From Prorocentrum cordatum (lineage: Eukaryota), in NCBI GenBank assembly GCA_963575745.1, contig CAUYUJ010000252.1:1-64000 (forward strand): a stretch of 64,000 bases of DNA, read 5' to 3'. The position numbers were made by a program, and so were the translations under genes. Shown here piece by piece: positions 7,804 through 42,047 of the stretch (positions are counted from its first letter, which is position 1; every line of letters begins with the position of its first letter). A model generated the notes under the pieces. The model had not been told where the DNA came from, ran no database searches, and was given only the letters and a program-made list of their open reading frames with translations.

Positions 7804-9801
7804 TTAGCCAGCAAGGCCGGCCCAGCGATGAACATCAGCAGGGCCACATAAGATCTCATTGGCGCCACAATCGGCCAAATGATCAGCTCGTTCGTTCAAA
7901 AATTGCCCAGTGTGGCTTTCCCATTTTCTGAAGACAATATAAGAAGAAACCTGATCAAAGACATGACGAACACGAAGAACAAGTCGAAGGTTCGTCCTCC
8001 CCCGGGTGCGCCGCTGAGCCACGCCGGCCGCGTACTCCGAGTCGTACTCGATGATGACAGGTTGTGAAGATGGCATCAAAGCAATATGATCATGAACCCA
8101 AGACAAAGCGAAAAATAAAGCAGACAGTTCACCAACATTATTGGAATGATGATATGCGCCGATGTATCCAGGCTCATTCGGGTCCAGGATGGTAGGCCCA
8201 CAGTAGTCCCGGAGCGAGGAAGAAGAGGAGGAGGCAACAGTAAAACCCCACCCAGACACGTCTGTATCTGGTCCAGCGGTCGCCGAACCATTGCAAGAAA
8301 GTACGAGGGCCTCGTGTACTCGAAAATCTCCTGGGGCAGGCTGCTGAGGAAGTTGGTCTTCTCGCCGGCCTGCCGGCGGTCCTCCCCCTGGTCCGCCGCC
8401 TGCTGCAGGCGGCGTCCGCTGCTTGATGCGGGGCAGAGGTGGAAGAGCAGCACGATATACATGTTCCAATGGTTGGGAACGGCACTGATCCAATTCGAGC
8501 AGAACTGGTTGTTGGCGACGCTCCGCGGCACAAGCCAAAGTAGCAATGGCATTCACGTGCAGCAGGTACTCCAAGATGTACTTCGCCTCCTCCAAAGACG
8601 GCGTCGTTTCTGCTCCCAGACAGTGCGGGACCAGTCCGCACCGTGCCAGGCAGGGGGGAAGACCGTCAGGATACGTATTCCCAGGTACGCGTGCATCAAG
8701 CACGCCGCGTGCAGCCGCATTGCACGGGCAGCTCCACAAACGGTGCATGGTGGTCTCGACCGCGCCCTTGCAGCGGACGCAGATCTCGTCGCCGTCGTGG
8801 TTCGGGATGCGGGTCTTGCTCAGGGAGGTCCAGATACCGCCGGTGGTGAGCGCGGGGCCGCCGTAGTGCAGCTGCGCGCCGAACATGTGCTCTCGTGCCT
8901 CATGCACCTCGGAGAGACCTTGGTGCAGGCCGCCGAAGTCCTTCGGCCGGCGGGCGGCCTCCCGCTCAGCCAGGCAGCGCCGCAAGAAAACACGCAGGTC
9001 GTGAAGCCGAGCGTCTACCCGAGCAGCCTTGCGCAATCGTGGATAATTGCGCCGGTCAGCTGGGGCAAGCAGCTCGGGGCGAATGCTGAAAGTGAAGGCG
9101 TAGTGGGTGCTCTTGAAAGACGTGGCAGTACGCCACTCAATGCCCAGCGCCCGACACGCTCGATCCAATAGAGTGAAAGGTCCAAATTTGTGACGTCGTC
9201 GCTGTGCCCACAAAGAGCGCCACACACTCAAAGGTACAATGTTGGCCAGGACGACCCTGTAGAACATGCGGATAGCCGTGTAGACAGCCGCGCACGTCAA
9301 GTGCGTTCGGTGCGCGCCCGGCCGAAGCAGATGGGTGAGGTCGCGCGATCTCCGACCCACTCGGCCCGGCGGTACATTGCCCATCAAGGGTACGGCGGCC
9401 CAAGCCGCTGCGCCCGACATCGTAAAAGCATAGCCGCCGTCACACCAGAGCGCCGCCACGGCGTCGGCGACACCAGCGCCGCGCTGCGTCTGCGGTAAGA
9501 TGTTGACGACGTCCACTCGTTTTCGAAACTGTTGCAGGCGTCTGGCAGCGACGGGCGCTGCCACCGGTGAGCCCAAGATTAGGGCAATCCCAAGATATCT
9601 GAAAGTACGCTGTAATGGAATAGCTCGCAGCTCGGGACTGCCGCACTCGGGGGCGCGCGTACCTGTGGCCGTGACCACCCCGCGGGCACACTTCGGCACG
9701 TTCAAATCTGGGCCAAAGGCACGGTCAATCTCGCGTGTGGCTGCCAGAGCGTCTGCGAGTTCTTGCCACGAATGAGCCAGAATGAACCTGTCGTCGAGGT
9801 A
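7804..9801 (-). CDS. LINE polyprotein, C-terminal part (RT from YLDD, zinc finger, RNase H)
   Basis: Open frame from YLDDRFIL to the stop at 7804. The first catalytic Asp of RNase H appears as Asn (CNGS). Confidence 0.9.
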   Translation of the reverse strand, partial: YLDDRFILAHSWQELADALAATREIDRAFGPDLNVPKCARGVVTATGTRAPECGSPELRAIPLQRTFRYLGIALILGSPVAAPVAARRLQQFRKRVDVVNILPQTQRGAGVADAVAALWCDGGYAFTMSGAAAWAAVPLMGNVPPGRVGRRSRDLTHLLRPGAHRTHLTCAAVYTAIRMFYRVVLANIVPLSVWRSLWAQRRRHKFGPFTLLDRACRALGIEWRTATSFKSTHYAFTFSIRPELLAPADRRNYPRLRKAARVDARLHDLRVFLRRCLAEREAARRPKDFGGLHQGLSEVHEAREHMFGAQLHYGGPALTTGGIWTSLSKTRIPNHDGDEICVRCKGAVETTMHRLWSCPCNAAARGVLDARVPGNTYPDGLPPCLARCGLVPHCLGAETTPSLEEAKYILEYLLHVNAIATLACAAERRQQPVLLELDQCRSQPLEHVYRAALPPLPRIKQRTPPAAGGGPGGGPPAGRREDQLPQQPAPGDFRVHEALVLSCNGSATAGPDTDVSGWGFTVASSSSSSLRDYCGPTILDPNEPGYIGAYHHSNNVGELSALFFALSWVHDHIALMPSSQPVIIEYDSEYAAGVAQRRTRGRTNLRLVLRVRHVFDQVSSYIVFRKWESHTGQFLNERADHLADCGANEILCGPADVHRWAGLAG

Positions 9802-11660
9802 TCGTCGAGGTAGGAGAAGAGCGTCGCCGTGGGCACCGCCCGCTCCACTGCCAAGTGCCACATGATTGAAGCTAAGTTGCACAGCAAGCACGCCATAGGA
9901 CAGCCCTGCGGTACGCCGACGAGGTTGCCGCCCTGCAACACGCCGTCCGTTGGCTGGTAATCAACGAACAAAATACGGGATAGGTTCTGGTAGTTCCGCA
10001 GGACGTGCCCGCAGATGTCCAAGCCCAGGTGGTTGGTCAGCTCCAGCAGGCTGTGCAAGTCCAGCCGGTCGTAACACTTCTCGAGGTCCAGGGACAGCAC
10101 GTAAGGTGGGTCGGTCTGCGCCACGCGCGCCTGCGCCAGCTTTGCTTGCAACTCCCATAATACGTCTGGACACGAATGTCGAGGCACTGCTCCTGCCAAG
10201 CCGGCTGGTTTCCACTCCAGCAGCCACTGTGTCAGATGGGCAGTATGGCGTCGCGTCCACAATCTGTAAGTAACGGGTAAGACAGTGAGCGGCCGACGGT
10301 CGCCTGGGGGCGACTCCGGCCCTTTCGGGATAAGAGTAACCCGAGCCTGTGTCCAGAAGCCAGGCAGCCTGCCCGCGTCCGCCGCGATCAGGAGCAGGGC
10401 GAGGCGGTCCAGGGAGTCCTTGTGCAGGTTCTCCAGCCAAGCCACAGACTGGCCCTCGATGCCGCTCGCGCCGTCGGGCAGAAACTCCAGGATGTGTTCG
10501 GCACACCAAGGCCCGAGCGGGCGATATGCTGGCACAGATGGCAGCAATGATAAATCGAATCGCTGGCGCCCAAGGCGTGCAGGAGGGGCCTGGCGTTCAC
10601 GAAGAAGACCAGGGTCAAGGCGAACACTGTGAAAATCAACTCGAAGTCCTGGTAGGTGTGTAATCTGGAAGACGCCGGCGTTCCACCGCCTGGCGAGCCC
10701 CCCATTGAGTTTCCGGGCCAGCTCGCGTGGAGACATGACCTCGGCGCCGAAGGCGGGCAGGATAGCTTCGCAGAGCGTGTCCAGCCTGTGCTTCACCCAC
10801 TTGGCCGCGCCACCTCGCGTACCCACCCGTTGTCGCCAATCTTTGAGTCTCATGCTGTTCGCGTCGTCGATGATGGACGTGATCATGCCCAACGTGTTGT
10901 CGGCCTCGTCGGGCCGCCCGTCGTGGAGCTGGCGCCGGAAGGTCCTCCATAGACTGTGGAGCTCTCGAGCTCGCGCCCCGGCACACCATCCGCCTCCGTC
11001 GGCCTGACGTAGCACGCGGGCCTCCGGAGCACCAGCCGCGTCGGCCCAGATAGCCCACGCCTGATCGATGTCGGACGGGAGCGCGTCTGCAAACTCGTCC
11101 TTGGCAGTAGTAGTCCAAGCGTCCATGCGCATAGGCTCGGAGACGGCCCACCGGAGGCTCTCGTGAAACTCAGGAGGTAAAGCCGCTTCCACCAACACAG
11201 GGCGATGTTGTGAATACTCGACAGGATCCAAAGCTGTAGCTGTGGCTGCAGCCGCAAGCGCGGTAGCGAATACCGCTCCATCGATGGTGGTCTGCCACTC
11301 CCCTACATGTGGGTTGCGGCGGAAAGTAGGCTCCGTAGGACAAATCGCCACCCGCTCCTCCCCGGCGTAGTGGACCGGGCGCTCGTTGAAGTCGCTCACG
11401 TCGATGGTGAGACGGGCAGGCTCGGTGAGGAGGCTGGCGTTGAACCTGCTACGCTCCGAAGCGGAGCCCGAATGGGCGTGCTGGTGCCGCACCAACACGC
11501 GCCTCTCGCCCAGCTGCAAAGCCAGTCGTTGCACACGGAAGTCAGTGTCATTCTGAGTGGCCGCGATGGGCGCTACATTTAGGCCGTCTCGGACAATAGT
11601 GCACATACCATGGCAACCAATGTGAACATGATACCCCAAAGTATGCAGATCAGCTCGCAA
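9702..11660 (-). CDS. LINE polyprotein, N-terminal part (APE + RT up to YLDD)
   Basis: 652-aa ORF in the track with APE and RT motifs; leaves the RT frame at the duplicated YLDD. Confidence 0.9.
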   Translation of the reverse strand: MRADLHTLGYHVHIGCHGMCTIVRDGLNVAPIAATQNDTDFRVQRLALQLGERRVLVRHQHAHSGSASERSRFNASLLTEPARLTIDVSDFNERPVHYAGEERVAICPTEPTFRRNPHVGEWQTTIDGAVFATALAAAATATALDPVEYSQHRPVLVEAALPPEFHESLRWAVSEPMRMDAWTTTAKDEFADALPSDIDQAWAIWADAAGAPEARVLRQADGGGWCAGARARELHSLWRTFRRQLHDGRPDEADNTLGMITSIIDDANSMRLKDWRQRVGTRGGAAKWVKHRLDTLCEAILPAFGAEVMSPRELARKLNGGLARRWNAGVFQITHLPGLRVDFHSVRLDPGLLRERQAPPARLGRQRFDLSLLPSVPAYRPLGPWCAEHILEFLPDGASGIEGQSVAWLENLHKDSLDRLALLLIAADAGRLPGFWTQARVTLIPKGPESPPGDRRPLTVLPVTYRLWTRRHTAHLTQWLLEWKPAGLAGAVPRHSCPDVLWELQAKLAQARVAQTDPPYVLSLDLEKCYDRLDLHSLLELTNHLGLDICGHVLRNYQNLSRILFVDYQPTDGVLQGGNLVGVPQGCPMACLLCNLASIMWHLAVERAVPTATLFSYLDDTSTTGSFWLIRGKNSQTLWQPHARLTVPLAQI

Positions 11661-13011
11661 GATGTGCCGCTGTCCATTGGGAAGGGCATGTTTACAAAAG
11701 GGTGGCCCAGCTGCGACGTTGGCTTTGTGTGTTTGGATCGGCGCTCTTCCTCCCGCCGTTCACAACGGCCCTCTCGCCCAAGCGCGGGCCACAGTTCAGG
11801 GCTCGACTTCTTCATCGTCGTCGGCGCCCCGCTCCTGTCCTCTCCTCCTCCGTGCACTGGTCCTCCTGCTCCTCCCGCTCCTCCTGCTCCTGCTCCTGCT
11901 GCCGCTGCTCCTCCTCGTCCTTTTCATTCCTCATCCTCGTTTTGCCCACCCTCTTGCTCATCCGCCACCTCCTCCTCCTCCTCCTCCTCCTCATCCTCCT
12001 CCTATTCCTCCTCCTCCTCCTCCTCCTCCTCCTCGGATGTACACAGGGCTCCTTCTCTTTTTGCGCATAGCATGATGTGATCCTTTGAGGGTTCCAGTTC
12101 CGCTGTGTCACCCGTCGGCGGATAGAGAAACATCAGCGCAATGGGAAGGGATTGGTGTGAATGGGGTAGGATGTCAGATGTGACGCGAGCCCCCTCCTTT
12201 CTCCTGCCTTCTCTCCCTCTTCCCTTCCCCAGCCCCTCCCCCTCTCCCCTCACCTTCCCTTCGACATCTCACCTCCCCCTTCCCCGACCCCTCCCCAACC
12301 CCTCCCCCTCCCCTCACCTCCCTCTCACCCTCCACCCCCCCTCTCCCCCGAACTCTGCCCCTCCCCCTTCCCCCCCCCTCCTCCCCCCCCCAGAGCCGAC
12401 CGACCTGGACCTCTCGGGGGGTAGGGTCTGGGAGTGATGCCTTGCCCCCCCCCCCACACCACCTCTCCCCCTCCCCTCCCCTTCCCCCTCCCCCTCCCTC
12501 CCCCTCCCTCTCCCCTCCCCTCTCCCCTCTTCCTCCCCCTCTCCCCCCTCCCTCTCCCTCCTCCAACATCACCAGCACTGGCAATCCCCTCATCATTGTC
12601 ACCAGCCCTGTGCAGTCTCTACCTTGCCGTGCTCGACGGCCAGGGCTCCCCCAGCATGCTCCAACACTGGGCTCCGTGGCTTTCTACCTGGGTCTCTTGA
12701 TGCTGAAGGGCCCACGGGAGTAGAAAGGAAGTCGGACGTTACCCGCCCCACCACCCTAAGCAATCTTGGCGTGGCAAGTGTGTGCTGGCTTCTCAATCAT
12801 AGCCCAGCGGGCTGCGGGAACCCTTTGAGACCACCCCCAGAGGGGCTCCATCAAAGGACGCAACCCGTCTGACAACATCCTGGGACGAGACGGCTATCTC
12901 GCTTCACAAGACGTGCTCCACGCCGACTCCGAGGGGGGCCTCGCCCTCTTCGGTTTGAGGCCTGTTCCCCATCTCTGGACCATGGTTGGATTTTCGAAAT
13001 TTGGGAGCGTA

Positions 13012-17111: not shown

Positions 17112-18400
<1,289 letters not shown>

Positions 18401-18426
18401 CGAGCGGCGCGGGCCCCCGATGCCAG

Positions 18427-18561
18427 CCAGGAATCCCGCAGCCGCCCGCCGGGGGCCCCGCGTCGCCGCCGCGGCCGCTGGGCGGCCTGGCGGGGCAGCC
18501 GCCGCCCCGGCCGCCCAGCGGCTTCGCCGCGCAGCCGCAGTCGGCCGAGCAGCGGCTGCAG
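18427..18561 (+). CDS. Exon of gene A (PGIPQPPAGG...SAEQRLQ)
   Basis: CAG acceptor, CAG|GC donor, GC3-rich; in frame with the exon at 24060. Confidence 0.55.
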
Positions 18562-18700
18562 GCGGGGCGGCCTCGTCGAAGCGGGGGGGGCTCTGCCTCG
18601 GGGTCCGCTTCGGTCCTCGCTCCTGGATCCCCCTCGGCCCTCGATCCGCCGTGGCCCTCCTCGGCCCTCTTCCTGCTGCTCTTCTCGTCGCCCCCTGCCT

Positions 18701-18722
18701 TCCGTAGCCATGTTGGCCCAAG
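18701..18722 (+). other. DinoSL spliced-leader relic (TCCGTAGCCATGTTGGCCCAAG), followed by a weaker second relic at 18723-18739
   Basis: 20/22 identical to DCCGTAGCCATTTTGGCTCAAG. Confidence 0.85.
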
Positions 18723-19943
18723 GTTATCCTGGTTCAAAGCGTCCACGGTAGTTCCGTTGCAAGAGTGCTCCCCTGACACTTTCTACTACAATATATACCG
18801 TTTTGTCGCGCCACCATTCTCGGCGGGGATGCCAGAACGTCATCTTCTCAACGCCTCAACGCGGCCAGAGGCAAAACAACAGAGGATGAACAGCCCGCTG
18901 CGCAAGATGGACGGGTTGGACGACGCAGCCGAGCTTGCCGCAGGTGGCGTCTGAAGTGTGGACGACGGGACGAAACAACAGCAGGCACCTTTCCAACAAC
19001 GTCTTGCAATCGCATCGGACGGTGCACTGTTAACGGTAAGTATGCTGTCACGCATGCTACTTGAGCACCTGGGGCCGATCAGGTTCGACATTGCCGCGAT
19101 CAAGCAACACGGCGTATCGCACGCAGACCTGAAACCATTAAAAACATCGATTGGCGGCCTTACTTTGCGCATTGCAGCCATTGAGGCTTGAGGCTAACCG
19201 TGCTGTTACGAGACACTAATCGGCAACATCGGGGGCAGCCCCCAGCATGAATTCCACGATCGAGGATAAATTGCACGGGTTGGCGCGCGAGGTGGACAAT
19301 CTTCGTGGGAAAAGGTTTCTAGGACCACTTAGCAACACTACGGCATCAACGACCGCCTACACAGCTGGGAAAAGTTATAACAACATCAACATGACGATCG
19401 TCGTGAATGATCTGCAGGCGGCGACGCCCAAAGAGGACCATTCAGTGATATTCGTCTTTCAATGTTGGCAGTGCGCAGGCGTGCACCATGGGCCAGGTCA
19501 TTGATATGCCACTGGCTTGCGCGCATTGGGGGGTGGACGCCACTTAATGCCCGGGTGCTCTTCCAAGTTGCTCCTTAACAGGGCCGGTGGCGCGGGCGGT
19601 TCCACGTTCTGCCTTGCGGTTTCGTTCCCACCAGTCGGATGGCTAACATGCAGCGCGCAATGCAGACGAGACGCTTCTCCGTAACATTGACAGGCGGATG
19701 TCGCTTGATTCGACGGGCACCGCCTGGTCTGATTCAACATATTTTCGGCTTCTATCCATGTTGCCATTTTGTAATATATTTTCACAGGGGTGGGTAATTC
19801 GACTTAAGTACTGGGTTTCCGCACGACTCCGTCTAGCTCCAACCTCCCATGTCCAAGTAACGACTTAAAACCTTCAACAACCCCGACTAAAAGTCAGTTC
19901 GCACCCGTGCACTGATCACCGTCAACGAAACATGGAGAACGAC

Positions 19944-19978
<35 letters not shown>

Positions 19979-22860
19979 TGGACCACCTGGGAAATACATA
20001 CTCTCAGCTGCACGACATGATCGCCATCCGCGAGCAGTGGCGATTGTGTTAAATAGCCAGCATGCCCGATTTATCAAGAGTTCACAGCCATCAGCGAGAG
20101 GATCGCTTACATGGACTTGGACTTGCCAGAGCAATCCATGAGGATAATCCGTCGTATTTTCCCCACTGTGGTTACGGCGACACCCACGTGCAGCAGGTAT
20201 ACGACATGCTCTCCGCCCTCCATAAACGGCCGGCCCATCAGCGAATGATGACAATACTGGCTGGCGATTCCAATGTGCAAGTTGGGGTTCAGAGCATCTG
20301 CGACGATACGGACAACGACGACGAGCAGCAGGTTGCACCGAACACATTGGTGGACAAATTTGGAATGGGGACGTGCGGCGCCCGAGGAACATGGTTACGA
20401 GCATGGGCGAACAAGGAGAAACTGATCACCAACACGCACTTTTACACAAGCACCCGAGCCATGTCTTTACACGCGCCAGCAGCAGCTCAGGCAGAACACG
20501 TTCAAAAATCGACTACGTCCTCATCGACCGGGCGTTCCGCACCATAGTTCTTGATGCTCGCGCGTCCGCGTGCCCAGATTTAGGCTCCGACCGTCAAGCT
20601 GTTCATATGCAACTCGACTTGTCTGTTTCGTCCGTGAAGCGACGGCGGAAACGGAGCAAACAGAAGACAATGCTCGCAGGACGACCACGGGCTAACGATC
20701 CACATTTTCAGCAGCACTTGACAGAATCGTTGCAAGAACGTTCGCGAGACTCAACAGTACGCGAGAGATGTGCAGACACTGAACGAGCGTTGCTAGTTGC
20801 AAGTGCGCTCTATGCCGATAGCAAGTACCACTGCGACTCCGACAACAAGCAGAACCAACAACTCCGTGACCTCATCGCCCAGCGACGCAGCACGCCGGAG
20901 GAGGACACCGTTGCCCGCAAGATGATTAGCAAACATATCTGCAAGGAGCTACGGTCATTGAAACGGGCCCGGCGGCAGGAGAAGATCAAGGACATCATCT
21001 GCAGTTTCAAGGGCCTCACAAAGATAGCGAGCACCAGAAAGATCAAGCACAAAGACATGATTCCGACTATGACGGGGCGCGATGGCAACGACGTGACTGA
21101 TCGACAAAGCATCGCCGACATCTTCGCCACATTCTACGAGCAGCTCTACCGGCGCAACGTTTACCACAACGAACGTGCGACGCGCGACGCCGACGCACCC
21201 CTCAGGAGCGCCGACACCGGCATGGCCCACGTCCCCATGCCACCCTTCTCACAAGAAGAGGTAGTGCAGGCGATCAAGCAATTCAAATATTTCAAATGCA
21301 AGGACACGGCGGGGATCACAGCAGCATGTTGAAGGCCGGCGGGACGTGCATAGAGCAACGCCTGCAATGCTTATCCGACGACATCATACAAACATTTTGT
21401 TTACCACCAAAATAATGGAGACGTACGACCCTTAGCGTAATCTTCAAATCTGGGGCCCCCAAAAGACCGCAGAACTATAGACCAATTGCGGTCATTCCTT
21501 TCCTGTGCAAGTTGATGGCCCGATTCGCGTGCAATCGTCGAAACCCAGGACTGGATGGCCAATGAAGCGTCGACCAAGCAGGCTTCCGACATGGCTACAG
21601 CACCGAAGGCCACCTCTCACCACAAGCCTGCTTCACAACCAGTCGGAAGAATGGCAATTACCCCTGCGGGCGGCAGGTGTGGACTTCAATCAAGCATTCG
21701 GCTGCGCAGGCTCTGGGAGAACAGCGAGCACCCTCATCCTACATCGACCTCCTACAGAAGTCCTACGACAACCAAACTGCCAGAGTCCGCACGGACACCA
21801 CGAGCACAGAGCTCAGCATTGAGAGAGGCGTAAAGCAAGGTGACCCGCTCGGCTCACTTCTGCCCGACGCGCTTCTTGAACATACCCTCCGACGGTTGAA
21901 GTTGTCGCAGTACAGGAGGAAGTTGGGCATGCAACTGGGATTTTGTCACAGACCCCATCATTACCAATCTTATATTCGCAGAAGATGTTTTGTTGCATGC
22001 ACCGTATCTACGCCAGCTGAAACGTTTACGTTGCGATCTGAAGAACCAGTCTTCCCACTGCGGCTCGGATCTGCACCCAGAGAAGACCAAACTACTTTCG
22101 AATGTCACCCGCCGCGAGGGCAGAACAATTCATTTCGTCACTATCGGTGGAGATAGCGTTGAGGTCTTGGAAGCGAAACAGAGCACGAAACTCTCAGGCG
22201 GAGTACTCACGTTTCATGACTTCCACGAAAAAGGAGCTCAATCATAGAATTGCCTCTGGGTGGCGCAAGTTTAACCAATTAAGGCACGAACTGATGTGCC
22301 AACACTACCCTCTTGCCAGCCGCCTGCGGCTTCTCAACTGGGCAGTGACGCCTGTCGTCACGTGCGGATGCACGTCGCTTGGTTTTATTAAGAATATGTT
22401 CACTACATTACAGCGGACGCAACGACATACTATCATCATCGTAGTTGGCACCAGCAGGAGGCGCACGAAGGGCCCCCCCGAGAACGACGACCAGACGAAC
22501 CATCATACCAGCAATTCCGAGCTCGCGGAGAATACCAATTTAGAGACCACAGCGCCTGAGAGCGACTTCGGCGACAGCAGCGAAACCAACGACGACGACA
22601 ACACAAGCAGCTTTGACGACAGCACCACGGGTTCCGGGATCGATTTTGTCTGGAGAGCAGCGCGCGTTGCCAACGCTCGCGCCGAACGAGCCCAAGTCTA
22701 ATTCTGGACAACAGCTCATTGCAAACGGAAGTGGCGGTGGGCTTACCGCGTGGCAAATCAATCTATTGACCGATGGTCACGACGTGCCGCCGTGTGGGAA
22801 CCCCCAGTGCATGACAAACGACCTGCCCAGAGGAGACACGGAGGGCAGCGGAAAAGATAG
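18701..22860 (+). mobile_element. Near full-length degenerate RTE-like LINE (ORF1-like coil, APE, RT) in an intron of gene A
   Basis: APE motifs YFPH, LAGDSNVQVG, KIDYVLID, LGSDRQAV. RT motifs IFKSG..NYRPI, DFNQAF, RGVKQGDPL, FAEDV. Numerous stops and frameshifts. Confidence 0.9.
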
Positions 22861-24059
22861 GAGGGCTCCGCTGCGGCGGATCTGCGCGTTTCGTTTCGCT
22901 TCGCTTTGCTTCGCTTCGCTTCGCTCCTCCTCCTCCTCCTCCTCCTCCCTCTCCTCCTCCTCCTCCTCCTCCTCCTCCTCCTCCTCCTCCTCCTCCTCCT
23001 CCTCCTCCTCCTTCTCATCTTCCTCCTTGCCTTCTCGCTCCATGCCTGCCTCTCTTCCCCCCTTTTCGACGCTGTCGTCCTCCCACTTCTCCTCTTCCCC
23101 CAATCTTCCCCTCCTCTTCGCCCCCCTCCACCTCCTCCTCCCTCCTCCCTCATCCCCGCCCCCCCCCCTTTCGAGCCAGTTTGGAGCCATCCAAAGCCTG
23201 CCAAGCCCCTCCTCCTCGTGATTCTCCATGGCATACCTCCTCCTCCTCCTTCTCCACCTGCGTTTTCCGTCCTATTCAACTTCCCTTCTCGGTCGGGAAC
23301 TGTTGGATCGCGTGTTGCGCCGCTGGTTCTGGCCCACCACGCTCCGGCGCGACACGTTATCCACTCCGCGGCCCCCAGACGTCAACGCCCCGACCATATC
23401 ACGAGCCTCCCGCCGCCCGCCCTCCTCCCGAGCCCTGCTGCCCCCATCCCTCCTCCCGTTGTTTTCCGTACTGTAGTTCCTGAGTTGGGCTTTTTTTTTG
23501 TCCCGCTTTGCGCATTCCGCCGTACGGGTTCACCTTGCTCATCATCGAGCGAGCAGAACTATGCACATACACCGATTCTGGCATAATTCTCCTTTCTCTG
23601 TCATCACGCTTCCTGCGCCTGCAGCTCTGGCTTCGGTCCCTGGGTGTCGCCGCCAGGTCACTCGAGCCCCGGCTGGCCGCACCGGGGCGCTCATCCTGGA
23701 ATCCTTCCCGCGGTGAGTGCCCCCCCTCCCTTCCCGTTCTCCGCGACGGCTCCTTCCCGCTCTTCCCTCCTCTTGCAGCCGGGCAGCTCGTTTGCCCAGC
23801 GCCCCCGGCAGCTCGAGCGCCCGCGCGGATTGCCCCGGCCGGGCCGCGACGCCAGAGGTGTCGTTAGCTTGGGCTGCCTGAGATGCTCCAGGCGTGGCCT
23901 CCCTTCGTTGGAGAGGGCTGCGGGAACCCTGCGCAGGAGTCCCCCCCCCCCACTTCCCGCACGGGATGTGCGCGTCGCCCGCGAATGCACGGCGGCCGCG
24001 CCGAAGCCATGCCCGACCGGCCTCCTCCCTCCCCAGACCGGTCGAGACCTCCCCCGCAG

Positions 24060-27425: not shown

Positions 27426-28532
27426 GAGGAGGAGGGAGGAGGAGGAGGAGGAGGAGGAGGGGGGAGGAGAGAGGAGGAGAGGAGGAGGACGAGGAGGAGA
27501 GGAGGAGGAGGAGGAGGAGGAGGAGGAGGGGGAGGAGGAGGAGGAGAAGGAGGAGGAGGAGGAGGAGGAGGGCAAGGAGGAGGAGGAGGAGGAAAGCATT
27601 ATCGACCCACGAATCTGGAAAGGAATGTGCAGAGATGCGGAGCATGCCACTGGGGGACGGGCCATTGCAATGCCGAAGGTGTCGATCGTGATGTACCGTG
27701 ACAGGGGCTGTGTTGTGCCGTGCGGTGCTGAGTTGAGATGTGTCATGCCGCGGTGAATTGCGTTGTGCTCGACAGTACAGCGTTCTGGATCAGGTCGTCA
27801 TTCGCATCCGAGCCCCGACCGAACTGATCTGGATATTACGCTCGAGCTGCCTGATCGCATGGCTCGCCCAGAGCTGAGTGCAACTGAGGCGTGCGGGGGG
27901 CTCCACAAGTTCGGGCTCAAGATCCGATTCGGCTCTGAAGCGGGGCCAATCCTGACCGAGGCGAAAAGGCACCGGCAGTGGACGGGCCGAGACGTGGCGA
28001 GCCGAGACGCAAACGAACTGAGGCAGGACGAACCGATGCAGTACGAGCCGAGACGAGGGCCGAACCGACTACGTAACCGAATTGGGGCAAAACGAGCCGA
28101 GACTGGAACGAGACGAATCCATGTTGGCTCACCCTCCTGAAGCCATGGCATCTCCTGCCGAGGGAGCCGAACTCCGAGGGCCAAGAACCCCTGCATGTGT
28201 GCCCCCCCAGGGCGGCGATCCTGGCGCAAATTGCGAACGATCCGTGTTTTGCTGCCCTCTGCTGCGTCATGCCGTGTTGGCGTGTTCCGCGTTCCATCGA
28301 GCTGTGGAGCAAGTCGTCCTTGGTGCCCTAACACTGACCGGCCTAAGCTGGATCTTAAGCTCAAGCTGCTCGAACGTATAGCTCGCCCAGAGCTGATTGC
28401 AATCGAAACGTTCGAGGCGCGCAACCGGCGATGACGATGACGATGATGATGACGATGCTTGATGAATTCTGAGCGCACTCTGCACTCATGACTATGGTAT
28501 CGGGCTCGCCCAGCTCGTCATCGTCATTGCCG

Positions 28533-36533: not shown

Positions 36534-36555
36534 CTTGAGCCAACATGGCCACGGT
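36534..36555 (-). other. DinoSL spliced-leader relic (ACCGTGGCCATGTTGGCTCAAG)
   Basis: Reverse complement of cttgagccaacatggccacggt; 20/22 identical to DinoSL. Confidence 0.85.
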
Positions 36556-40619: not shown

Positions 40620-40815
40620 CTCATACACACCCCTTACATGTGCGACTCCCAGATGTCTTGGTGTGGAATTCCGCCCGGGCTCCAGGTGCGCGATGTCGGA
40701 TGGGATCCCCGCTCGAGCCCCCCCCTCGGGGTCGACGCTTCGCACCCCTAATTACCTACAGCACCTTAGCCGCCTTGCCCTTCCCCAGTCCACCTCCCTA
40801 TAGGTTTGAGCGTGC
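40620..40815 (+). repeat. Diverged direct repeat; second copy at ~42550-42755
   Basis: cccagat..gtggaattcc..tccccgctcga..ctcggggtc..cgccttgcccttcccca..cctaYaggtttgag is present in both. Confidence 0.85.
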
Positions 40816-40961
40816 GCTCTTCTTTCATCGCGCCCCACCCATTTCTTTCGACTCGTCCTCTCTCTGCCTCGGTGTTAGTGCCAAGTTCTTCTGCAGCCAC
40901 TGGCTCACTGGGTGCGTTTTTGCATGGGGCCGCGCAGTGCCATTCAGCAAGTGGGCGCCAC

Positions 40962-42047
40962 ATGTCTACCAAGGTCGCAAGTGCAGTGACGAGGACGGCA
41001 GGTGGAGGTGAGAACCCTGAAGAGCCTCTCAGAGAACCTTTGGTTAACCTGCCAGTTGAGACCGGTAAGAAACATGTCTACGGATACATGTGGATGTTTG
41101 CGGTCGCGAGTCTGAATCTTGGGACGGTGGTATTGACCAGCTTCATCTCACAGTCTGGCGATATCCCGACATACACTCAGAATTTCATAAGGTGCCTCGC
41201 AGCGGCCTTTTCCATGCTCGCGGTCGCCATCTTTCGTCAAGACCCACTGCTTCCATCTAGGTTGATAGCTCGACAGTGCTTGACTTTCGGTTTGGCCGAT
41301 TGGTTCTTCCTCTGGGGCTACGTGAAAGCTCTCATCTATGTTTCAGTCTTGCAGTACACTGTTCTCAATACGTCTTTCGGCCCCGTTGTCAGCGCGTTGA
41401 TGGGTCTTTTGGTGCTCGGCGAGCAAATTAGTAAATATAAGGTATGTGGGCTGCTTCGAAATGTGGCCTTGGCATTCCTGATCACAGATCCCTTCGATGG
41501 AAAAGGTTCTGTAGCCACATTGATGACAGGATTTCTCTGGGTGATCGTGGCTGCGGCTGGCACCGGTGCCATGCGAATCGTTCAGCGCACGAATGCTGCA
41601 ATTCCCCCGATCGTGTTTATGTTCTGGGGCTACGTCCTAAATACTTTGTTGTGGTTGCCGCCAGGATGCATTCCACCAAAGTTACGCGTGCCTTTCCTGT
41701 GGCCTGCCGTGCCCCAGGATAGCACAGACTTGTTCGGATTACCTGCGAGCACTTGGATCGTGATGTCGCTCTCAGGTGTCCTTGGTGCGTCGATCATGCT
41801 TGCTCAAGGCCAGGCTTTGAAGTACTTGGATGTAGGCACATATGCTATGCTTGTAACACCGTTGGCGCTGGTCCAAACTGTCATCTATAGTTCGATATCC
41901 GCGTGCCTGCGGCAAGTTTCGCCACTGTGCCAGCGTAGCGCTCTGTTTGGCGGACCTTCGAGATCCGCCCGGAAGAGCTACAGTCAAGACGCTGAAATAA
42001 GGAACAGCCTGGGTTCGGAAGGGGCACGCTGTTCCTTGGATTCATAG
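40962..42047 (+). CDS. EamA/DMT (drug-metabolite transporter superfamily) membrane protein; similarity fades at ~41900
   Basis: About nine hydrophobic helices with DMT signatures NFIRC, KALIYVSV, PVVSALMGLLVLGEQI and QALKYLDVG; more than 900 nt without an intron. Confidence 0.85.
   Translation: MSTKVASAVTRTAGGGENPEEPLREPLVNLPVETGKKHVYGYMWMFAVASLNLGTVVLTSFISQSGDIPTYTQNFIRCLAAAFSMLAVAIFRQDPLLPSRLIARQCLTFGLADWFFLWGYVKALIYVSVLQYTVLNTSFGPVVSALMGLLVLGEQISKYKVCGLLRNVALAFLITDPFDGKGSVATLMTGFLWVIVAAAGTGAMRIVQRTNAAIPPIVFMFWGYVLNTLLWLPPGCIPPKLRVPFLWPAVPQDSTDLFGLPASTWIVMSLSGVLGASIMLAQGQALKYLDVGTYAMLVTPLALVQTVIYSSISACLRQVSPLCQRSALFGGPSRSARKSYSQDAEIRNSLGSEGARCSLDS

What the first reader, a model, noticed from the sequence alone, without database searches (positions are those of the whole stretch)
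18701..22860. RTE-like LINE whose 5' end is a DinoSL spliced leader plus a second decayed leader
Seen: a 20/22 match to DinoSL sits exactly where GC-rich intron sequence gives way to the element, on the element's sense strand, and is followed by GTTATCCTGGTTCAAAG, which resembles an older relic. Known: relic SLs, including tandem ones, mark retroposed dinoflagellate mRNAs. Inference: the LINE RNA itself is SL-trans-spliced, gaining its 5' end and cap from the host pathway, and may have passed through more than one RNA-to-DNA cycle. This would let a promoterless LINE be cut out of read-through or intronic transcripts.
Basis: partly seen in the sequence, partly recalled or inferred. Interest (0 to 1): 0.8.

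Follow-up and report, generated by a model that had tools for sequence, protein, structure and literature searches.

The report
Decayed LINE copy headed by DinoSL
A broken copy of a jumping gene in a dinoflagellate genome begins exactly with the short leader that this group of algae splices onto its messenger RNAs, so it was copied back from a leader-capped RNA, which is an expected but rarely documented consequence of known dinoflagellate biology.

Summary
The core observation holds. Window 18701-18722 (+) matches the 22-nt dinoflagellate spliced leader (DinoSL) at 20 of 22 positions. No comparable match appeared in 100 shuffles. The match sits where pyrimidine-rich low-complexity DNA gives way to a 4.2-kb island of normal sequence.

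The island carries, on the same strand, a frameshifted non-LTR retrotransposon with an AP-type endonuclease followed by a reverse transcriptase.

The best reading is that the island is a retrocopy of an SL-trans-spliced RNA that encoded a LINE.

- **Not shown:** that the SL is the family's regular 5' end. About 1.1 kb between the SL and the first endonuclease motif has no recognisable homology. No whole genome is held. In the one run that carries this locus, the SL-proximal ~140 nt lie at single-copy depth while downstream parts are multi-copy.
- **Second decayed leader:** weak; 4.3% of random 20-mers in the window score as well.
- **RTE clade:** not tested.

There is precedent. DinoSL-tagged retrogenes are enriched for RT functions (PMC5585692). 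Genome-encoded SL fused to transposable and retrotransposable elements was reported in Schistosoma mansoni (PMC5832876).

Verdict: a real, ordinary-to-moderately interesting new member of a known kind.

The parts
18701..18722 (+). Genome-encoded DinoSL-like 22-mer (20 of 22; differs at T12>G and T18>C). It is the 5' terminus of the inserted island.
   Evidence: Sequence. Scan and shuffles. DinoSL text in PMC7245778. Composition break.
18723..18739 (+). Putative older relic leader. Weak, possibly chance.
   Evidence: 10 of 15 plus 1 gap to CCATTTTGGCTCAAG. 4.3% of random 20-mers in the window score as well.
18740..19865 (+). About 1.1 kb of unassigned 5' region: 5' UTR or N-terminal leader of the LINE, or transduced or foreign sequence. 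It contains a block at about 19280-19760 that is multi-copy in run X1.
   Evidence: No Pfam hit. Profile of LINE homologues finds nothing upstream of 19912. The ORF 19220-19504 gave only spurious repeat-protein hits and no atlas lead. Depth profile.
19912..20586 (+). Remnant of AP-type endonuclease domain, interrupted by frameshifts and a microsatellite.
   Evidence: Profile positions 99-113, 147-181 and 173-220 map to 19912-19956, 20075-20179 and 20152-20295. tblastn of P0001-P0003. The homologues carry PF03372 and PF14529. The end coordinate is interpolated from the P0001 Pfam range 123-349.
19948..19976 (.). (GA)n microsatellite inside the endonuclease region.
   Evidence: Sequence. Read laying reports a skipped repeat at 19935-19984.
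21440..22161 (+). Reverse transcriptase domain remnant, frameshifted. Motifs read by eye: QAGFR, VDFNQAF, GVKQGDPLG, FAED.
   Evidence: P0001 aa 607-820 aligns to 21320-21940 at 45% identity, and aa 827-916 to 21960-22226. P0001 RVT_1 spans aa 647-894, E 1.1e-36. Coordinates are interpolated.
22162..22860 (+). Conserved C-terminal region of the LINE protein. The copy stops about 70 codons short of its homologues.
   Evidence: P0001 aa 919-1185 aligns to 22234-22896, and P0002 and P0003 reach 22842 and 22839. Two X1 contigs run on unlike the window behind 22862.
22861..23030 (.). 3' flank of simple repeats, (GCTTC)n then (CCT)n. No poly(A) and no target-site duplication recognised.
   Evidence: Sequence. 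The longest flank repeat shared with 18641-18700 is a low-complexity 7-mer.

Best explanation
The island 18701-22860 is a dead retrocopy of an RNA that carried the dinoflagellate spliced leader at its 5' end and encoded an AP-endonuclease/reverse-transcriptase LINE protein.

Proposed sequence of events:
1. A source LINE, or a longer transcript running through it, was transcribed.
2. The host machinery trans-spliced the 22-nt leader with its cap onto an AG acceptor upstream of the LINE ORF.
3. The RNA was reverse transcribed to its very 5' end, most likely by the LINE's own protein, and inserted into a pyrimidine-rich tract.
4. The copy then decayed: at least 5 frame changes, 5 in-frame stops, a (GA)n expansion in the endonuclease, and loss of the last ~70 codons and the 3' end.

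Shown: the SL at the island boundary, the sense orientation, exon-only SL, LINE identity, and the decay.

Inferred: trans-splicing as the source of the SL, self-mobilisation, and a single insertion event.

I split this reading about evenly between two forms:
- (a) The SL sits on the family's own 5' UTR.
- (b) The acceptor lay in sequence upstream of the source copy, so the copy carries a private 5' transduced stretch.
For: - **SL match.** 20 of 22, with no comparable match in 100 shuffles.
- **Exon only.** The following bases (GTTATCC...) lack the GTAC start and the T-run. Both features follow all 7 of 7 SL-RNA-gene-like sites recovered from public contigs (window sequence).
- **Flanks.** Both are pyrimidine-rich low complexity (C+T 0.75 upstream, 0.92 downstream, 0.41-0.53 inside), as for one insertion into one tract.
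- **LINE on the same strand.** P0001 (RVT_1 plus Exo_endo_phos) aligns over aa 188-1185 in six frame-shifted pieces. The profile places endonuclease motifs in order from 19912.
- **Second SL-headed island.** A 20 of 22 SL at 36555-36534 (-) also sits at a low-complexity boundary. SL-headed retrocopies are therefore common here.
- **Shared variant.** Both leaders, and a partial third at 28119-28133, carry the same T12>G change. The same variant occurs in public contigs L203 and L216, which argues for genuine leaders.
- **Literature.** About 22-23% of genes in two Symbiodiniaceae genomes were identified as DinoSL-tagged retrogenes (PMC6050394, passages). Those retrogenes are enriched for 'RNA-dependent DNA replication' (PMC5585692, passages).
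Against: - **One copy only.** No genome is held.
- **Unassigned 5' region.** The 1.1 kb between the SL and the first endonuclease motif has no recognisable LINE or protein homology.
- **Depth in run X1.** Depth is 1.55 at 18696-18841, against 15.6, 30-43 and 3-23 further in. The SL-proximal part is not seen in other copies. These are short contigs of a low-coverage run, so the weight is limited.
- **Missing insertion hallmarks.** No target-site duplication, no poly(A), and the 3' end is missing.
- **Related LINE loci.** None of 80 from metagenomes has an SL within 4 mismatches. Their hosts are unknown and may not use DinoSL.
- **SL-bearing loci.** None of 119 from viral contigs or 22 from genome contigs has a LINE homologue of the four query proteins.
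Confidence: 0.7

Rival explanations
1. Nested or adjacent, independent events. An older SL-headed retrocopy of some other RNA (18701 to about 19860) later received a 5'-truncated LINE at or near its 3' end. On this reading the SL never belonged to a LINE transcript.
For: - The 5' 1.1 kb has no LINE homology.
- The X1 depth profile is uneven: 1.55, 15.6, 4.3, 0, 30-43, 8.4, 0, then 3-23.
- The endonuclease N-terminus is incomplete. Only profile positions from 99 onward are detected, and weakly (E 0.047).
- SL-headed islands without a LINE exist in the same window (36555-36534).
Against: - No remainder of a host retrocopy and no poly(A) lie between the 5' region and the LINE, or behind the LINE.
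- Both outer flanks are the same kind of pyrimidine-rich tract.
- One reading frame, broken by four stops, runs from 19579 into the endonuclease motif at 19921-19938 (my reading).
- The multi-copy block reaches at least to 19790 without a clean boundary (my comparison of the loose-end consensus with the window).
Confidence: 0.17
2. The 22-mer is a decayed SL RNA gene. Alternatively, the junction arose by template switching of the reverse transcriptase from the LINE RNA onto unspliced SL RNA, as in U6-L1 chimeras of mammals (recalled).
For: Both SL copies in the window are followed by GT, the donor dinucleotide. SL genes are followed by GU or GC in Fugacium (PMC6616646, section 3.3).
Against: - All 7 of 7 SL-RNA-gene-like sites in public contigs continue GTAC... 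with a T-run 30-50 nt on. The window copies continue GTTA... and GTGC..., have no run of 4 T within 60 nt, and are unlike each other.
- 2 of 16 retrocopy-like SL sites in the same set are also followed by GT, so GT is not diagnostic.
- There is no tandem array and no Rfam hit.
- The exon carries 2 changes.
Confidence: 0.05
3. A site-specific LINE inserted into a spliced-leader gene, as SLACS, CZAR and NeSL elements do in trypanosomatids and nematodes (recalled).
For: A LINE abuts SL sequence.
Against: - The element has an AP-type endonuclease. By recall, that group has a restriction-like one.
- The whole exon lies upstream and no SL-gene remainder lies behind the element.
- There is no SL gene array.
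- A second SL in the window heads a non-LINE island.
Confidence: 0.03

Closest known systems
DinoSL-tagged retrogenes and retropseudogenes of dinoflagellates (PMC5585692, PMC6050394 and PMC12014239, passages read; Slamovits & Keeling 2008 as cited in them)
   Same: A genome-encoded leader lies at the 5' boundary of an intron-free copy, explained by reverse transcription of a trans-spliced mRNA. RT-related genes are enriched among such copies: GO term 'RNA-dependent DNA replication'.
   Different: Here the cargo is itself a recognisable endonuclease-RT LINE, so the element may have copied its own capped mRNA. The cited passages treat RT genes as ordinary retroposed genes and do not describe LINE 5' ends.
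Genome-encoded SL fused to transposable elements in Schistosoma mansoni (PMC5832876, passages)
   Same: Exonic SL sequences were found merged to six transposable or retrotransposable elements. The authors read these as possibly 'trans-spliced retro-transcribed elements'.
   Different: A different phylum and a different leader (36 nt). The authors also allowed for assembly chimeras. No anatomy of the junction is given in the passages I saw.
DinoSL-bearing endogenous RNA-virus copies in Symbiodiniaceae (PMC10235124, PMC9651163, passages)
   Same: A foreign or selfish RNA that acquired the host leader was retroposed, leaving a leader relic beside the insert.
   Different: The cargo is viral RdRp or capsid genes without their own reverse transcriptase, so mobilisation must be in trans.
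SL-gene-specific LINEs (SLACS, CZAR, NeSL; recalled, not checked in a paper here)
   Same: LINE sequence adjoins spliced-leader sequence in genomic DNA.
   Different: There the SL is target DNA split by the insertion. Here the complete exon precedes the element, nothing of an SL gene follows it, and the endonuclease is AP-type.

Membership tests
DinoSL-tagged retrocopy (retroposed trans-spliced RNA) | Near-complete 22-nt DinoSL encoded in DNA at the 5' boundary of the copy | tested here: met
   20 of 22 at 18701-18722. No comparable match in 100 shuffles. Composition break at the same base.
DinoSL-tagged retrocopy (retroposed trans-spliced RNA) | Exon only: no SL RNA intron behind the leader | tested here: met
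   The window continues GTTATCC..., with no GTAC start and no T-run. 7 of 7 gene-like sites have both.
DinoSL-tagged retrocopy (retroposed trans-spliced RNA) | Leader in sense orientation to the cargo ORF | tested here: met
   SL on the + strand. All LINE alignments are in + frames.
DinoSL-tagged retrocopy (retroposed trans-spliced RNA) | 3' poly(A) and target-site duplication | tested here: not met
   No poly(A). Only a 7-nt low-complexity repeat is shared by the flanks. The 3' end of the cargo is missing. The copy is old, so loss is possible.
DinoSL-tagged retrocopy (retroposed trans-spliced RNA) | Tandem relic leader as a sign of repeated cycles | tested here: inconclusive
   10 of 15 plus a gap. 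4.3% of random windows score as well.
AP-endonuclease non-LTR retrotransposon (LINE) | Reverse transcriptase domain | tested here: met
   tblastn to P0001-P0003 gives 45% identity over 214 aa at 21320-21940. These proteins hit RVT_1 at E 1e-36 to 1e-39. Direct Pfam on the broken window ORFs found nothing.
AP-endonuclease non-LTR retrotransposon (LINE) | N-terminal AP-type endonuclease upstream of the RT on the same strand | tested here: met
   Profile and tblastn matches at 19912-20586. The homologues carry PF03372 and PF14529.
AP-endonuclease non-LTR retrotransposon (LINE) | Repeated family in the genome | tested here: met
   113 contigs of run X1 were laid, 76 of them under 90% identity, covering 28 of 30 bins.
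RTE clade of LINEs | Placement of the RT within the RTE clade in a phylogeny with reference elements | not testable with these tools
RTE clade of LINEs | Single ORF, no gag-like ORF1, no C-terminal zinc knuckle or RNase H (features recalled) | tested here: inconclusive
   Homologues P0001 and P0003 show only endonuclease and RVT_1. The upstream ORF 19220-19504 has no credible relatives. The ~1.1-kb 5' region is long for this clade by recall.
SL RNA gene | Intact exon, GTAC-type intron start, downstream U-rich motif, tandem arrays | tested here: not met
   The exon has 2 changes. The intron features are absent. There is a single occurrence with no array. No Rfam hit.
SL-gene-specific LINEs (SLACS/CZAR/NeSL) | Insertion inside the SL exon of SL gene arrays; restriction-like endonuclease (recalled) | tested here: not met
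   The complete exon lies upstream and no SL-gene remainder lies downstream. The endonuclease is AP-type.

The most novel reading that the evidence does not exclude
LINEs of dinoflagellates have no promoter of their own. They are carved out of read-through or intronic transcripts by SL trans-splicing, which gives them cap and 5' end. Each new copy then carries the leader as a portable module: an AG acceptor inside the leader for the next round, and the TTTT/TTTG motif proposed as a promoter core in PMC5585692. Copies with private stretches between the SL and the conserved element body, as this one may be, would be 5' transductions from upstream acceptors.
Probability: 0.3. Interest if true: 0.65.

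Novelty: new member of a known kind. Interest (0 to 1): 0.38.

Why it matters
Dinoflagellate genomes are thought to have grown largely by retroposition of leader-tagged mRNAs. Which element supplies the reverse transcriptase is still open; the papers I read name both LINEs and Ty1/copia as candidates. A LINE copy that itself begins with the leader shows that LINE-encoding RNA enters the same trans-splicing and retroposition path as host mRNAs.

If this holds family-wide, it would explain how promoterless LINEs are expressed in genomes with long unidirectional transcription. It would also give a simple sequence tag for finding full-length, recently active LINEs. As it stands this is one decayed copy, and the idea follows from known biology.

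Tried and rejected
- **Sequencing runs:** only one weak DNA holder (X1, 0.12 of words) and two runs of the same study. No RNA holder listed.
- **Contigs laid:** short, about 200 nt. None bridges the SL and the LINE body. X2 laid nothing. X3 laid only on a low-complexity stretch at 22569-22609.
- **Pfam on 9 ORF pieces of the element:** no credible hit.
- **Rfam on 18000-23500:** one chance-level hit, RsmY, E 0.96.
- **Other copies in the window:** none by blastn or tblastn.
- **Upstream ORF 19220-19504:**
  - The representative search gave 3 hits, all repeat proteins matched by summed weak stretches.
  - The atlas gave unnamed bacterial clusters only.
  - My idea of a gag-like zinc knuckle there was dropped. 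The 2-nt insertion seen in other copies does not restore a CCHC pattern.
- **Metagenome relatives:** 80 of 336 confirmed loci were kept, and 0 of 80 have an SL within 4 mismatches. The closest, L001, has ~180-nt tandem repeats upstream and its best SL-like 21-mer has 8 mismatches. Their hosts are unknown, so this says little.
- **Exact-SL scans:** 119 viral-contig loci and 22 genome-contig loci yielded no LINE homologue of P0001, P0003, P0007 or P0008.
- **Second SL-headed island:** no Pfam hit and no homologue.
- **Earlier-findings look-ups:** by place, sequence and four words gave nothing.
- **Preprint 10.1101/2024.02.20.581179:** returned no occurrences for any term, so its list of leader variants was not seen.
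- **Supplementary tables:** those of PMC5585692 and PMC5832876, which may list RT genes or elements with leaders, were not opened.
Full report
**The observation**

Window 18701-18722 on the + strand reads TCCGTAGCCATGTTGGCCCAAG. The dinoflagellate spliced leader is printed as DCCGTAGCCATTTTGGCTCAAG in PMC7245778 (passage), so 20 of 22 positions agree. The two differences are T12>G and T18>C.

A scan of both strands with the 21-nt core and up to 3 mismatches found 2 matches. One hundred dinucleotide-preserving shuffles gave none. Allowing 5 mismatches still gives only these two.

The match sits at a sharp change of sequence character. The 100 nt before it are 75% C+T low-complexity DNA. The next 200 nt are 53% C+T with normal complexity. 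The 200 nt beyond the element (22901-23100) are again 92% C+T. The leader is therefore the first 22 nt of a 4.2-kb island set in a pyrimidine-rich tract. I could not verify that this tract is an intron.

**What the island is**

Pfam found nothing in the nine broken ORF pieces. The 368-aa ORF 20226-21332 does have relatives: three long proteins carrying RVT_1 and Exo_endo_phos, and in one case Exo_endo_phos_2 (confirmed for P0001 and P0003).

tblastn of these proteins back on the window gives a colinear chain on the + strand. P0001 aa 188-1185 aligns to 20075-22896 in six main pieces that change frame at least five times. The pieces contain five in-frame stops.

A profile of the three proteins places endonuclease positions 99-113 at 19912-19956 (weak, E 0.047). 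Positions 147-181 fall at 20075-20179 and positions 173-220 at 20152-20295. A (GA)n microsatellite at 19948-19976 interrupts the endonuclease.

The homologues continue for about 70 residues beyond the last aligned residue. Two contigs of run X1 run on with different sequence behind 22862. I read that sequence as the next conserved motif of the protein, so this copy has lost its 3' end. No poly(A) and no target-site duplication are recognisable.

In short, it is an old, dead copy of an AP-endonuclease/RT non-LTR retrotransposon. Whether it belongs to the RTE clade could not be tested. The homologues have no further Pfam domain, which is compatible with RTE.

**Does the leader belong to the LINE?**

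This is the crux, and it could only be partly answered. No whole genome is held.

Between the leader and the first detectable endonuclease motif lie about 1.1 kb without any recognisable homology:
- No Pfam hit.
- No profile match upstream of 19912.
- Only spurious hits for the ORF 19220-19504 in 1.84 billion representatives.
- No atlas lead.

The only sequencing run that holds the locus (X1; 0.12 of the sampled words) consists of ~200-nt contigs. 113 were laid, 76 of them below 90% identity, so the element is a repeated family.

Depth in that run is uneven:

| Region | Depth |
|---|---|
| Upstream flank | 1.07 |
| 18696-18841 (leader and first ~120 nt) | 1.55 |
| 18842-18987 | 15.6 |
| 19134-19279 | 0 |
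| 19280-19717 (up to 15 distinct contigs per site) | 30-43 |
| Most of the LINE body (one bin, 21032-21177, reaches 23.1) | 3-16 |

The leader-proximal stretch is thus seen at single-copy depth while sequence further in is multi-copy. This leans against the leader being the shared 5' end of many copies. It fits either 5' truncation of the other copies, or a private stretch between the leader and the conserved body. The data are thin, and part of the 15.6 could be low-complexity noise.

Two points favour one contiguous unit. One reading frame, broken by four stops, runs from 19579 into the endonuclease motif at 19921-19938. And both outer flanks are the same kind of tract.

**The second decayed leader**

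GTTATCCTGGTTCAAAG aligns with the relic form CCATTTTGGCTCAAG (PMC12014239) at 10 of 15 positions with one gap. 4.3% of all 20-nt windows of this sequence score as well.

Genuine relics recovered in public contigs begin CCATTT directly behind AAG (L203, L212). The putative relic is also far more decayed than the leader next to it, although both have sat in the same DNA since insertion. That would require a long-dead source copy. I treat it as unproven.

**Rival explanations**

*SL RNA gene or SL-RNA template-switch chimera.* I recovered 23 exact-leader sites from genome contigs (22 loci). Seven look like SL RNA genes. All seven continue GTAC... and have a T-run 30-50 nt on. One continues GTACACATTGGG, the form given in PMC12584245. 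The window's two leaders continue GTTA... and GTGC..., lack such a run and are unlike each other. Of the 16 other sites, 2 are also followed by GT, so the GT is not telling.

*Site-specific insertion into an SL gene.* This is unlikely. The whole exon precedes the element, nothing of a gene follows it, and the endonuclease is AP-type.

*An independent older retrocopy into which, or next to which, a truncated LINE landed.* This cannot be excluded (my estimate 0.17).

**Context in the window**

- **Second leader.** ACCGTGGCCATGTTGGCTCAAG, 20 of 22, lies at 36555-36534 on the - strand. It again sits at a boundary from low-complexity to complex sequence. Its island has no Pfam hit or homologue.
- **Partial third.** CCATGTTGGCTCA lies at 28119-28131.
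- **Shared variant.** All three share G at leader position 12. The same variant occurs in public contigs L203 and L216. A leader with the same G was reported from Polarella, but that variant also has T for C at position 2 and was not confirmed there (PMC7245778).
- **Another LINE.** A better-preserved LINE of another type (RT, zinc-knuckle-like motif, RNase H) lies on the - strand at 7807-11759. It is truncated within its endonuclease and has no leader, the best match having 7 mismatches. It is therefore uninformative.

**Wider tests**

- None of 80 metagenome loci encoding relatives of the LINE has a leader within 4 mismatches. Their hosts are unknown.
- None of 119 viral-contig loci or 22 genome-contig loci with an exact leader has a homologue of the four LINE proteins tried.

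These tests neither support nor refute the idea.

**What is known**

Retroposition of leader-bearing mRNAs is established in dinoflagellates. In two Symbiodiniaceae genomes about 22-23% of genes were identified as DinoSL-tagged retrogenes (PMC6050394). The retrogene set is enriched for 'RNA-dependent DNA replication' (PMC5585692). Viral inserts with leaders are described in PMC10235124 and PMC9651163.

In Schistosoma mansoni, six genome-encoded leaders merged to transposable or retrotransposable elements were read as possibly trans-spliced, retro-transcribed elements (PMC5832876).

Four full-text searches and the passages I read gave no explicit description of a dinoflagellate LINE whose 5' end is the leader. 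I did not open the supplements.

**Verdict**

The leader is real and marks the 5' end of a retroposed RNA that carried a LINE. That is a new example of a known process. The claim that the family regularly takes its 5' end from trans-splicing, and the second cycle, remain untested. Interest 0.38.

Noticed in passing
window 36534-36555 (- strand) and the island downstream to about 35640: A second genome-encoded DinoSL-like 22-mer (20 of 22; A5>G and T12>G). It lies at a boundary from (TACTC)-type low complexity to complex sequence. It heads an island with a coiled-coil-like ORF that has no Pfam hit and no homologue.
   Followed up: partly
window 18712, 36544 and 28119-28133: All three leader-like sequences in the window carry G instead of T at leader position 12 (CCATGTTGG). 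This creates an ATG inside the leader. The same variant occurs in public contigs L203 and L216. It may be the normal or a common leader form of this organism.
   Followed up: partly
window 7807-11759 (- strand): A second, much better preserved LINE of another type. It has two overlapping ORFs of 685 and 718 aa, with RVT_1 (E 2.6e-10), a CX2CX7HX4C-like motif and RNase H (E 2e-4). It is truncated within the endonuclease and has no leader at its 5' boundary.
   Followed up: partly
window 40770-42044 (+ strand): A 425-aa open frame with an EamA-like transporter domain (E 7e-12). It may be a single-exon host gene or retrogene. No leader was found near it.
   Followed up: no
window 19280-19760: A block inside the element's 5' region that is about 3 or more times as abundant in run X1 as the LINE body (6-15 distinct contigs per site against 2-5). 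All X1 contigs differ from the window at 19418 and 19423, and some carry a 2-nt insertion near 19470.
   Followed up: partly
loci L206/L221, L207/L208, L213, L220 (genome contigs): Contigs filed under bacterial MAGs carry intact dinoflagellate SL RNA genes: the leader, then GTAC..., then a T-run, some in tandem. These are presumably eukaryotic contamination of the bins.
   Followed up: no
loci L081-L160 and further loci (viral contigs): 119 stretches with an exact DinoSL, mostly on giant-virus MAG contigs and often several per contig.
   Followed up: no
locus L001 5000-5840: The closest metagenomic relative of the LINE has ~180-nt tandem repeats directly upstream of its ORF. These are reminiscent of monomer-type LINE 5' UTRs. 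There is no leader.
   Followed up: no
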